Of a stretch of DNA of 64,000 bases, positions 18,001 to 21,000 are shown one piece after another. Positions within the stretch are counted from its first letter, which is position 1. The number at the start of each line of letters is the position of its first letter. Origin of the DNA: Escherichia coli (GTDB taxonomy: Bacteria > Pseudomonadota > Gammaproteobacteria > Enterobacterales > Enterobacteriaceae); assembly GCF_030384885.1 (NCBI RefSeq), contig NZ_CP128613.1. One strand, 5' to 3'. Position numbers: made by a program.

Positions 18001-21000
18001 GATCGCCGGGGTGCTGCCGGACGGTAAAGCCGAAGCGATTAAACGTCTGCAAAGTGAAGGACGTCAGGTGGCAATGGTGGGCGACGGCATTAACGACGCG
18101 CCAGCGCTGGCCCAGGCGGATGTCGGTATTGCGATGGGGGGCGGCAGCGATGTTGCCATTGAAACCGCGGCGATTACCCTGATGCGCCATAGCCTGATGG
18201 GTGTTGCGGATGCGCTCGCTATTTCCCGCGCAACGCTGCGCAACATGAAGCAGAACCTGCTCGGCGCGTTTATCTACAACAGCATTGGTATTCCGGTCGC
18301 CGCCGGTATTTTGTGGCCGTTCACTGGAACACTGCTTAACCCGGTGGTTGCCGGAGCGGCAATGGCGCTCTCGTCGATCACCGTAGTGAGTAACGCCAAC
18401 CGCTTGCTGCGGTTTAAACCGAAGGAATAAGTATGTCATTGCGGATGCGCTGCTTTAGGGTGGCGCATCTGGCATCGACGCATGCCTGCCGGATGCGGCA
18501 TAAACGCCTTATCCGGCCTACGATTCAGGCACAGGGTTGTAGGCCTGATAAGACGCGTAAGCGTCGCATCAGGCAATGGTGCTCGGATGCCGGATGCGGC
18601 GTGAACGCCTTATCCGGCATCCGAGATGAAGCGATTTTTTGGCCTTACGCGACCTTTTTGCACGTTTTTCCCGGCGTGCCAAATATTTAATCCGTCCCAA
18701 CTCCATTTGCGCCATCCCTCCCCGCGCGCTAGCATGATATTTCACAAAGGGAGGTCGTATGGATCTGTTGTACCGGGTAAAAACGCTTTGGGCCGCGCTG
18801 CGCGGCAATCATTACACCTGGCCTGCTATCGATATCTCTCTTCCCGGCAATCGCCATTTTCATCTGATTGGCAGTATTCATATGGGCAGCCACGATATGG
18901 CTCCCCTGCCCACCCGTTTGCTCAAAAAGCTCAAAAACGCCGATGCGCTGATCGTCGAGGCGGATGTTTCCACCAGCGATACGCCTTTTGCCAATTTGCC
19001 TGCCTGCGAGGCGCTGGAAGAGCGCATTAGCGAGGAGCAATTACAAAATCTGCAAAACATAAGCCAGGAGATGGGTATTTCTCCGTCGCTCTTTTCCACC
19101 CAACCACTGTGGCAAATCGCGATGGTTCTTCAGGCAACGCAGGCGCAAAAACTGGGGCTGCGGGCAGAATATGGTATCGATTACCAGCTATTGCAGGTGG
19201 CGAAGCAACAACATAAACCCGTGATTGAACTGGAAGGGGCAGAAAACCAGATTGCCATGTTGCTCCAGCTCCCTGACAAAGGACTGGCGCTGCTGGACGA
19301 TACGCTGACCCACTGGCACACCAACGCTCGTTTGCTGCAACAAATGATGAGTTGGTGGCTGAATGCACCACCGCAAAATAATGAAATAACGCTGCCGAAT
19401 ACGTTCAGCCAATCGCTGTACGATGTGCTGATGCATCAGCGAAATCTCGCCTGGCGGGATAAACTGCATGCTATGCCGCCGGGGCGCTATGTGGTCGCGG
19501 TCGGAGCTTTACATCTGTATGGAGAAGGGAATTTGCCGCAGATGTTGCGCTAAAAAAATGGCCAATATCGCTATTGGCCCGTCAAAGAGGAATTTCATTT
19601 TTTTATTATTATGCCGTCACTTTAAGCGACGGTGTAACTCGATTGTCGCTCAATCTCACCATCCTGCCAATACTCTTAGGCAAGATGACTCTTTTTTTTG
19701 GACCGCCATCAGGCGTATGCTTGCTTCGTTTTTTTGTTTAAGGCAGGAAAATTATCATGACACCCGCAGTTAAATTACTCGAAAAAAACAAGATTTCGTT
19801 TCAAATCCATACCTACGAGCACGATCCGGCTGAAACCAATTTTGGCGATGAAGTCGTCAAAAAATTAGGTTTGAATCCGGATCAGGTCTACAAAACGCTG
19901 CTGGTCGCAGTGAATGGTGATATGAAACATCTGGCAGTGGCCGTTACGCCGGTCGCCGGTCAACTGGATCTTAAAAAAGTAGCAAAAGCGCTGGGTGCCA
20001 AGAAAGTTGAGATGGCCGATCCGATGGTCGCGCAGCGTTCGACGGGATATCTGGTTGGGGGGATTAGCCCACTGGGGCAGAAAAAACGCCTGCCGACGAT
20101 TATCGACGCCCCCGCGCAAGAGTTTGCCACTATTTTTGTTTCTGGCGGCAAGCGCGGGCTGGACATCGAACTGGCGGCAAGCGACCTGGCGAAGATCCTC
20201 GATGCCAAATTTGCTGATATCGCTCGTCGCGATTAAGTGATGCACACGGAAGATGAGATGTGGAAAGGATTACAGAGACATTAAGTATCGCTTGTGCAGA
20301 TGAGATACCGGATATCGCCTTACTTCGGCAAACATCGAGAGAGAAGGTATTACATCTGCATTTTGCCAGCGAAGCAGAGAGGTATCGTGAGGAATTCGGG
20401 CTGGTGCTGAAAGCACAGCTCGATGAATTTGTTGTTGGCATGCATTCTGCCGACCCGGTTATCAGGATCGCCAGATTAATATCGCTTGAAGAGATTAACC
20501 GCCATCAGGATTTTTTCGAACACTGCGCGAAAGAATATCGTAAGCTGGCGACAGAGCTTATATTTGCATTGGCTGAACAACTGAATGTTGAGATGGCGGA
20601 AAATAACCCGCTAGTTACCTTTGCCCCCTTCAAATGCAACCGTAAGCGAAAAGGCAAAATGGGAAAGTGGCAGTATTGTTTTCACGGTTTTCATTGTGCA
20701 TTTGAGAATAAAAAAACAGAGCAAAATATTGAAGTTCCCCTCGCCTACGGCTTTGATTTCGGCGATCTGGACCCGTATTTTTTTTCCGGATTTATCAAAT
20801 CGACCCCCGACTGGCAGCCTCTGCCAGTGGCTATTTACGATGATTACCACGACGGCAGCAGGATCATTCAACAACTGCTGGCGCTGGGAAAGTTAGAAAA
20901 AATCCCTTCACCGATCCCACAATACACGGGGGTTGCTGCGGTAGATCGGTCCAATGTCGACATCGCAAATTTTCGCTCAACACTGGAGAGTCGCCTGCAC

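What the first reader, a model, noticed from the sequence alone, without database searches (positions are those of the whole stretch)
19553..19635. ChiX sRNA in the ybaP-ybaK spacer, overlapping the ybaP stop
Not visible in an ORF track. The terminator U-tract of ChiX (minus strand) overlaps the ybaP stop codon, a convergent arrangement.
Basis: partly seen in the sequence, partly recalled or inferred. Interest (0 to 1): 0.2.

Follow-up and report, generated by a model that had tools for sequence, protein, structure and literature searches.

The report
Known ChiX small RNA gene confirmed

Summary
Confirmed, and already known. Rfam family RF00368 (sroB, also called ChiX, MicM or RybC) matches window 19552..19635 on the minus strand. 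The score is 82.1 bits against a threshold of 44, with E = 1.8e-10. The 84 nt are 84/84 identical to the curated K-12 gene chiX (b4585).

The neighbours are as stated. ybaP (18759..19553, +) converges on chiX, and ybaK (19757..20236, +) lies upstream of it and runs the other way. The ybaP TAA stop (19551-19553) shares 2 nt (19552-19553) with the seven-U tail of ChiX, exactly as in K-12.

All expected parts are present:
- a sigma-70-like promoter placing the start at 19635
- a 5' hairpin
- an A-rich linker
- the seed UCCUCUUUGACGGG
- a terminator hairpin with a U7 tail

The seed is perfectly complementary over 12 nt to the chiP ribosome-binding site, including in this strain's own genome. It is also complementary over 12 nt to the K-12 chbB-chbC decoy.

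One modest addition: the 2-nt overlap between the stop codon and the U-tail is conserved in 89 of 120 Enterobacterales loci examined. The chiX-to-ybaK non-coding stretch is almost invariant, while the flanking genes differ from K-12 by 4-5%.

Interest is low.

The parts
19552..19635 (-). chiX gene (ChiX / MicM / RybC / SroB small RNA, 84 nt)
   Evidence: Rfam RF00368, 82.1 bits against a gathering score of 44, E = 1.8e-10. It is 84/84 identical to K-12 b4585. It is present in 5422 of 5426 complete E. coli genomes.
19665..19670 (-). -35-like hexamer TTGGCA of the chiX promoter
   Evidence: Promoter scan: TTGGCA, 17-nt spacer, GACAAT. The region is identical to K-12. This is a consensus match only; the region held 1 such site against 1.2 expected in shuffles.
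19642..19647 (-). -10-like hexamer GACAAT, 6 nt upstream of the RNA 5' end at 19635
   Evidence: The motif GAGCGACAAT sits at the same distance from the 5' hairpin in most Enterobacteriaceae homologues.
19614..19632 (-). 5' hairpin (ChiX nt 4-22, 8 bp, loop UAA)
   Evidence: Fold (MFE -24.1 kcal/mol, z = -3.88). A hairpin of at least 5 bp at this position occurs in 107 of 107 unique homologues, with 87 distinct hairpin sequences. So the structure is conserved while the sequence is free.
19592..19613 (-). A-rich single-stranded linker (ChiX nt 23-44, CAUAAUAAUAAAAAAAUGAAAU)
   Evidence: Unpaired in the centroid fold. An A/U-rich AUAA-type linker is present in all homologues. That it is the Hfq distal-face (ARN) site is from published knowledge, not tested here.
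19578..19591 (-). Seed / target-pairing region (ChiX nt 45-58, UCCUCUUUGACGGG)
   Evidence: Nt 45-56 are perfectly complementary to chiP leader CGUCAAAGAGGA, which ends 8 nt upstream of the ATG. Nt 47-58 are perfectly complementary to chbB-chbC spacer CCCGUCAAAGAG. The same chiP site is present in the window's own strain.
19560..19579 (-). Terminator hairpin GGCCAAUA-GCGA-UAUUGGCC (ChiX nt 57-76)
   Evidence: Terminator scan and fold. Homologues show compensatory changes, GGCCAAUA/UAUUGGCC to GGCCGAUA/UAUCGGCC.
19552..19558 (-). U7 tail of the terminator (3' end of ChiX)
   Evidence: The run is 5-9 T in the homologues scored.
19551..19553 (+). ybaP stop codon TAA, sharing 19552-19553 with the ChiX U-tail
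   Evidence: ORF 18759..19553 and the sequence itself. K-12 has the same 2-nt overlap. The overlap is conserved in 89 of 120 loci scored.
18759..19553 (+). ybaP (TraB/GumN family protein, 264 aa), convergent neighbour
   Evidence: PF01963, 1.8e-43.
19757..20236 (+). ybaK (Cys-tRNA(Pro) deacylase, 159 aa), divergent neighbour upstream of the chiX promoter
   Evidence: PF04073, 2.1e-22.

Best explanation
Window 19552..19635 (minus strand) is the chiX gene. It encodes an 84-nt, Hfq-dependent, trans-acting small RNA. It is transcribed from its own sigma-70-type promoter and ended by an intrinsic terminator whose U-tail runs 2 nt into the stop codon of the convergent gene ybaP. Its single-stranded seed (nt 45-58) pairs with the Shine-Dalgarno region of the chiP (ybfM) mRNA. 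This keeps the chitoporin silent when no chitosugars are present. When the chb operon is induced, the chbB-chbC spacer pairs with the same seed. It acts as a decoy that titrates ChiX and triggers its decay, which relieves chiP. The chiP leader fragment ChiZ does the same. Shown here: identity, boundaries, structure, conservation, synteny and target complementarity. Taken from the literature or inferred: Hfq binding, the regulatory outcome, and the decoy mechanism.
For: Identity: the Rfam sroB hit is well above threshold, and the sequence is 84/84 identical to curated K-12 chiX. The ybaK-chiX-ybaP synteny is the same as in K-12.

Anatomy: a promoter-like TTGGCA/17/GACAAT places +1 at 19635, and a terminator hairpin is followed by U7. 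The fold has a 5' hairpin and a terminator hairpin with an open seed, z = -3.88.

Selection: chiX shows 0 mismatches in 84 nt against K-12, and the adjacent spacer 1 in 121. By contrast ybaP shows 43 in 795 and ybaK 20 in 480, mostly synonymous.

Conservation: the gene is present in 5422 of 5426 complete E. coli genomes. In 107 unique homologues across Enterobacterales the 5' hairpin is always present with 87 different sequences, and the terminator shows compensatory changes.

Targets: there are 12-nt perfect complements to the chiP SD region and to the chbB-chbC spacer. The chb complement is extended by AUUUCAU after a 2-nt gap. The chiP site is intact in the window's own strain.

Literature: ChiX-chiP pairing was proven by compensatory mutations. 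The chbBC spacer and ChiZ act as sponges, and ChiX increases Rho-dependent regulation of chiP (PMC7815308). A Salmonella sRNA review table lists ybaK and ybaP as the flanking genes of MicM (RybC, ChiX, SroB) (PMC3384567).
Against: Nothing contradicts the explanation, but there are limits. There are no expression data for this strain. The RefSeq annotation of the matching genome does not list the gene. The promoter call is a consensus match at a frequency no higher than chance. Unconstrained duplex energies were not discriminating for chiP: 2 of 100 shuffles reached the observed value. The homologue set was retrieved with a pattern containing the seed, so seed invariance in that set is circular. 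The chb decoy site was checked in K-12, not in this strain.
Confidence: 0.97

Rival explanations
1. In addition to its trans role, the locus works in cis. ybaP transcripts are not stopped by the ChiX terminator, because on the + strand the hairpin has no downstream U-run. They therefore read antisense across chiX towards ybaK. This would either give a perfectly complementary anti-ChiX RNA or cause transcriptional interference. The conserved overlap between the stop codon and the U-tail would then reflect this coupling.
For: ybaP and ybaK are co-directional, with chiX antisense between them. On the + strand the hairpin is followed by CGUCAAAGAGG, and the scan found no + strand terminator between 19553 and 19709. 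The 2-nt overlap is conserved in 89 of 120 loci even though YbaP C-termini vary in length and sequence. The entire chiX-ybaK spacer is 120/121 identical to K-12.
Against: There are no transcript data. The conserved overlap has a simpler explanation: TAA and the U-run are each constrained, and UUA read on the other strand is TAA. About a quarter of the species have lost the overlap, with gaps of 3-230 nt or deeper overlaps, while keeping ChiX. No paper found describes such an interaction.
Confidence: 0.08
2. The element is only the 3' terminator or 3' UTR of ybaP (a bidirectional terminator), not an independent RNA gene.
For: The hairpin sits immediately after the ybaP stop codon. One RIL-seq annotation scheme labelled the region ybaP.EST3UTR before re-assigning it to ChiX.
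Against: The U-run is on the minus strand only. An upstream promoter-like site, a 5' hairpin and a seed lie beyond any terminator. The full-length Rfam match is on the minus strand. The sequence is identical to an experimentally characterised sRNA.
Confidence: 0.02
3. A decayed or non-functional copy of chiX.
For: None.
Against: The gene is 84/84 identical to K-12, with its promoter region intact. It is a single copy per genome.
Confidence: 0.01

Closest known systems
ChiX (MicM / RybC / SroB), E. coli K-12 b4585; Rfam RF00368
   Same: The 84-nt sequence, strand relation, flanking genes, 2-nt overlap with ybaP, promoter region, seed and terminator are all identical.
   Different: Nothing within the gene. 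The surrounding strain background differs: there is no ybaQ between ybaP and copA, and there is an extra two-gene insert between ybaK and ushA.
Salmonella ChiX and other Enterobacterales homologues
   Same: They share the seed AAAUUCCUCUUUGAC, the terminator hairpin with U-tail, an A-rich linker and a 5' hairpin. Nearly all have ybaK upstream and ybaP downstream.
   Different: The 5' hairpin sequence is free to vary, with 87 variants. In some genera (Erwinia, some Pantoea, Buttiauxella, Rouxiella) ybaP ends 3-230 nt away. In four loci the ybaP ORF runs 17 nt into the terminator hairpin. In Proteus chiX is not next to ybaP.
Other Hfq-dependent porin-silencing sRNAs (MicA, MicC, MicF, RybB)
   Same: These are trans-acting sRNAs of about 80-100 nt with an intrinsic terminator, and they pair at or near the ribosome-binding site of an outer-membrane protein mRNA (own knowledge).
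   Different: By published accounts ChiX is constitutively made and is controlled by decoy or sponge RNAs (chbBC spacer, ChiZ) rather than by its own transcription. Its seed is internal rather than at the 5' end.

Membership tests
Rfam RF00368 sroB (ChiX) | Covariance-model score at or above the curated gathering score (44 bits), full-length match | tested here: met
   82.1 bits, E = 1.8e-10, model positions 1-83 of 83, minus strand 19635..19552.
ChiX (E. coli chiX, b4585) | Sequence orthology to the experimentally defined K-12 RNA | tested here: met
   84/84 identical. The 251-nt alignment covering the whole ybaK-chiX-ybaP spacer plus short flanks differs at 2 positions.
ChiX (E. coli chiX, b4585) | Genomic position between ybaK (divergent) and ybaP (convergent) | tested here: met
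   The same synteny is seen in nearly all of the 118 other loci scored. PMC3384567 lists ybaK and ybaP as the flanks.
ChiX (E. coli chiX, b4585) | Seed complementary to the chiP (ybfM) Shine-Dalgarno region | tested here: met
   ChiX nt 45-56 pair with CGUCAAAGAGGA, which ends 8 nt upstream of the chiP ATG, in K-12 and in strain 2013C-4282.
ChiX (E. coli chiX, b4585) | Complementarity to the chbB-chbC intergenic decoy | tested here: met
   ChiX nt 47-58 pair with CCCGUCAAAGAG, and an adjacent AUUUCAU pairs with AUGAAAU, in the K-12 chbB-chbC spacer. This was not checked in the window's own strain.
Hfq-dependent sRNA (class II type) | Intrinsic terminator with a U-rich 3' tail (Hfq proximal face) plus A-rich ARN-type internal motif (distal face) | tested here: met
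   The sequence features are present: an 8-bp GC-rich hairpin with U7 and the linker AUAAUAAUAAAAAAAUGAAA. This covers only the sequence prerequisites.
Hfq-dependent sRNA (class II type) | Physical binding to Hfq and Hfq-dependent stability | not testable with these tools
   Taken from the literature (papers listed; PMC7815308).
ChiX (E. coli chiX, b4585) | Expression as a discrete ~84-nt transcript that represses chiP | not testable with these tools
   No transcriptome data are available for this strain. It is documented for K-12 and Salmonella.

The most novel reading that the evidence does not exclude
The embedding of the ybaP stop codon in the ChiX U-tail is conserved from Escherichia to Serratia, Yersinia, Rahnella and some Pantoea. 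No + strand terminator follows the stop codon. Together these could mean that ybaP transcription obligatorily produces an antisense RNA covering all of ChiX. That would be a cis-encoded sponge or an interference mechanism coupling YbaP/YbaK expression to ChiX activity.
Probability: 0.07. Interest if true: 0.35.

Novelty: already known. Interest (0 to 1): 0.08.

Why it matters
It matters little beyond correct annotation. ChiX is a textbook sRNA and the founding example of an sRNA controlled by a decoy, or "trap", mRNA. This copy is identical to the K-12 reference. Two practical points follow. First, automated RefSeq annotation of this strain omits the gene, so an ORF-only view leaves a 203-nt apparent gap that is in fact functional and nearly invariant. 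Second, the 2-nt sharing of the ybaP stop codon and the ChiX U-tail is widely conserved, which constrains both genes at once. Anyone engineering either gene should keep this in mind. For example, a clean ybaP deletion could remove part of the ChiX terminator tail.

Tried and rejected
1. Unconstrained RNAduplex energies of ChiX against the chiP leader and the chb spacer. The program allowed very large internal loops. Shuffled chiP leaders reached the observed energy in 2 of 100 trials, so I dropped the energies and used the length of perfect complementarity instead. An earlier run timed out, and the first attempt failed because loci fetched by accession were not yet in /data.

2. Looking for ChiX target sites inside the window. 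The anti-seed GTCAAAGAG occurs only at chiX itself, so no target lies in these 64 kb.

3. My first guess at the chiP position in strain 2013C-4282 was wrong (it landed on lipB-entF). The second attempt found it.

4. A MAFFT/RNAalifold covariation analysis was not run, because the 5' hairpin is too variable to align reliably. An alignment-free hairpin census was used instead.

5. A literature search for any described ChiX-ybaP relationship found only a table of flanking genes and a RIL-seq relabelling note.

6. I considered a bidirectional-terminator reading and rejected it, because the + strand has no U-run after the hairpin.

Full report
**1. The observation**

The window sequence at 19540-19640 reads, on the + strand...TTGCGC TAA AAAAA TGGCCAATATCGCTATTGGCC CGTCAAAGAGGAATTTCATTTTTTTATTATTATGCCGTCACTTTAAGCGACGGTGT.

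A covariance-model scan of all 64 kb against Rfam 15 returned five matches above threshold. One is RF00368 sroB at 19552..19635 on the minus strand. It scores 82.1 bits against a gathering score of 44, with E = 1.8e-10, and the match is full-length. sroB is the Rfam name for the RNA also called ChiX, MicM or RybC (the synonyms are listed in PMC3384567).

**2. Identity and context**

A 701-nt stretch around the site is 100% identical to E. coli strain 2013C-4282 (NZ_CP027579.1) and about 97% identical to most other E. coli.

- In that record the neighbours are copA, ybaP, ybaK, a DUF6896 gene, a hypothetical gene and ushA. No feature is annotated between ybaP and ybaK.
- The curated K-12 record has ncRNA chiX (b4585) at 507204..507287, between ybaK and ybaP. 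ybaP lies at 507286..508080 on the opposite strand.
- An alignment of the window's minus strand with K-12, covering the whole spacer plus short flanks, shows 2 differences in 251 columns and none in the 84 nt of chiX.
- The ORFs flanking the site are ybaP (18759..19553, PF01963 at 1.8e-43) and ybaK (19757..20236, PF04073 at 2.1e-22).

**3. The overlap**

The ybaP stop TAA is at 19551-19553. The run of seven A at 19552-19558 is the U7 tail of ChiX on the other strand. The genes therefore share 19552-19553, which is the same 2-nt overlap as in K-12. Otherwise the description is exact.

**4. Anatomy**

Reading the minus strand, the parts are:

| Part | Window coordinates | ChiX nt | Evidence |
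|---|---|---|---|
| -35-like TTGGCA | 19670-19665 | n/a | |
| 17-nt spacer, then -10-like GACAAT | 19647-19642 | n/a | |
| RNA 5' end, 6 nt further on | 19635 | 1 | |
| 5' hairpin, 8 bp | 19632-19614 | 4-22 | |
| A-rich linker | 19613-19592 | 23-44 | |
| Seed | 19591-19578 | 45-58 | |
| Terminator hairpin GGCCAAUA-GCGA-UAUUGGCC | 19579-19560 | 57-76 | |
| U7 tail | 19558-19552 | 78-84 | |

The MFE is -24.1 kcal/mol, with z = -3.88 against dinucleotide shuffles. The promoter match on its own is no more than chance would give in this region (1 found, 1.2 expected). Its value comes from its position and from conservation: GAGCGACAAT recurs at the same distance from the 5' hairpin in most Enterobacteriaceae homologues.

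**5. Selection**

Divergence between the window and K-12:

| Region | Mismatches | Identity | Note |
|---|---|---|---|
| ybaP | 43 of 795 nt | 94.6% | 34 synonymous and 5 non-synonymous codon changes |
| ybaK | 20 of 480 nt | 95.8% | 18 synonymous, 2 non-synonymous |
| chiX | 0 of 84 nt | 100% | |
| chiX-ybaK spacer | 1 of 121 nt | 99.2% | |

At the flanking rate about 10 differences would be expected in these 205 non-coding nucleotides. The stretch is therefore under stronger constraint than synonymous sites nearby. chiX is found once per genome in 5422 of 5426 complete E. coli genomes, and 5011 of those copies are at least 99% identical.

**6. Relatives**

All but one are Enterobacterales. 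The exception (L062) has no terminator and is a chance match.

The set yielded 107 unique RNA sequences.
- Every one has a 5' hairpin of at least 5 bp (median 8) directly upstream of the A-rich linker.
- There are 87 different hairpin sequences.
- The 5' region folds better than shuffles, with a median z of -2.98.
- The terminator stem shows compensatory changes, for example A-U to G-C at the fifth pair.

Because the search pattern contained the seed, the invariance of the seed in this set proves nothing.

**7. Is the overlap conserved?**

For each locus I located the YbaP homologue by tblastn. I then extended it to its first in-frame stop and compared that with the end of the T-run.

- Of 120 loci scored, including the window and K-12, 89 have TAA overlapping the tail by exactly 2 nt. 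These include Escherichia, Citrobacter, Enterobacter, Klebsiella, Kluyvera, Serratia, Yersinia, Rahnella and some Pantoea.
- The overlap holds even though the last residues of YbaP differ in sequence and number between these genera.
- Four Pantoea loci use TGA with a 1-nt overlap.
- Four loci (L043, L050, L068, L096) lack the T after the U-run, and their ORF runs 17 nt into the hairpin.
- About twenty loci have gaps of 3-230 nt.
- In Proteus chiX is not adjacent to ybaP.

The simplest reading is that UUA at the end of the tail doubles as TAA on the other strand. Once formed, the arrangement is held in place by selection on both genes. I found no paper that discusses it.

**8. Mechanism**

Shown here:
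- ChiX nt 45-56 (UCCUCUUUGACG) are perfectly complementary to CGUCAAAGAGGA in the chiP leader. That site ends 8 nt before the ATG and covers the Shine-Dalgarno sequence.
- Nt 47-58 are perfectly complementary to CCCGUCAAAGAG in the chbB-chbC spacer. After a 2-nt gap, AUUUCAU pairs with ChiX AUGAAAU.
- A 12-nt perfect match between an 84-nt RNA and a ~170-nt target is expected by chance about once in a thousand trials (my arithmetic).
- The chiP site is intact in the window's own strain, and the chiP leader is present in 5424 of 5426 E. coli genomes.

From the literature:
- ChiX-chiP pairing was established with compensatory mutations.
- ChiX binding increases Rho-dependent regulation of chiP.
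- The chbBC spacer sponges ChiX and promotes its decay.
- The chiP 5' fragment ChiZ also sponges ChiX (PMC7815308 and the works it cites).

From my own knowledge, not tested here:
- ChiX is made constitutively.
- It binds the Hfq proximal face through the U-tail and the distal face through the A-rich linker (a class II sRNA).
- It also represses dpiBA. Strain 2013C-4282 does carry dpiBA.

**9. Rivals**

*Terminator-only reading.* This fails because the U-run is on the minus strand only, and because a promoter-like site, a 5' hairpin and a seed lie beyond the hairpin.

*Additional cis role.* This cannot be excluded. ybaP and ybaK point the same way with chiX antisense between them. The + strand shows no terminator-like site between the ybaP stop codon and 19710. 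ybaP transcripts may therefore run antisense across chiX. No transcript data were available, so I give this about 7-8%.

**10. Verdict**

The feature is real, correctly located to within 1 nt and correctly interpreted. It is already known: an orthologue identical to a thoroughly characterised sRNA. Interest is low. The only additions are the breadth of conservation of the overlap between the stop codon and the U-tail, and the near-invariance of the chiX-to-ybaK non-coding stretch (19552-19756).

Noticed in passing
window 18431-18758 (copA-ybaP spacer), REP element at 18542-18619: K-12 has ybaQ (a HigA-family antitoxin-like regulator) between ybaP and copA, but this window has none. The 328-nt spacer instead carries a REP-type element that matches Rfam naRNA4 on both strands (84.6 and 62.3 bits). 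Other strains that match the ends of this spacer have ybaQ inside it.
   Followed up: partly
window 20260-21434: Two co-directional genes lie between ybaK and ushA and are absent from K-12: a 266-aa DUF6896 protein (PF21837, 4.3e-14) and an overlapping 125-aa protein with no Pfam match. The insert is present in 774 of 5426 complete E. coli genomes, always on the chromosome and in a single copy.
   Followed up: partly
window 19636-19756: The chiX-ybaK spacer is 120/121 identical to K-12, while the flanking coding sequences are 94.6-95.8% identical. The conserved stretch extends well beyond the ~35 nt needed for the chiX promoter. It presumably also holds the ybaK promoter and leader, but nothing was tested.
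   Followed up: partly
loci L043, L050, L068, L096 (and L028); L067, L093: In four Phytobacter-like or Enterobacteriaceae species the ybaP reading frame lacks the TAA at the U-tract and runs 17 nt into the ChiX terminator hairpin. In Proteus the ChiX-like RNA is not next to ybaP.
   Followed up: partly
L001 (NZ_CP027579.1) around locus 3754-3958: The RefSeq/PGAP annotation of the matching strain has no chiX feature. The locus tags jump from RS11265 (ybaP) to RS11275 (ybaK), as if an entry in between had been dropped.
   Followed up: no
window 36153-36217 (minus): The dnaX programmed -1 frameshift element matches Rfam RF00382 at 94.6 bits, as expected inside dnaX.
   Followed up: no
window 53022-53118 (minus): The signal recognition particle RNA gene (ffs, 4.5S RNA) matches Rfam RF00169 at 68.1 bits.
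   Followed up: no
window 19468-19773 (+): A mechanical 101-aa ORF runs out of frame from inside ybaP, antisense across all of chiX, and ends past the ybaK start. It is almost certainly not a gene, but it shows that the + strand has no stop codon in that frame across the whole spacer.
   Followed up: no
literature (PMC10954441): A RIL-seq annotation scheme initially labelled ChiX reads as 'ybaP.EST3UTR' and had to re-assign them by hand. This is a practical consequence of the overlap.
   Followed up: no
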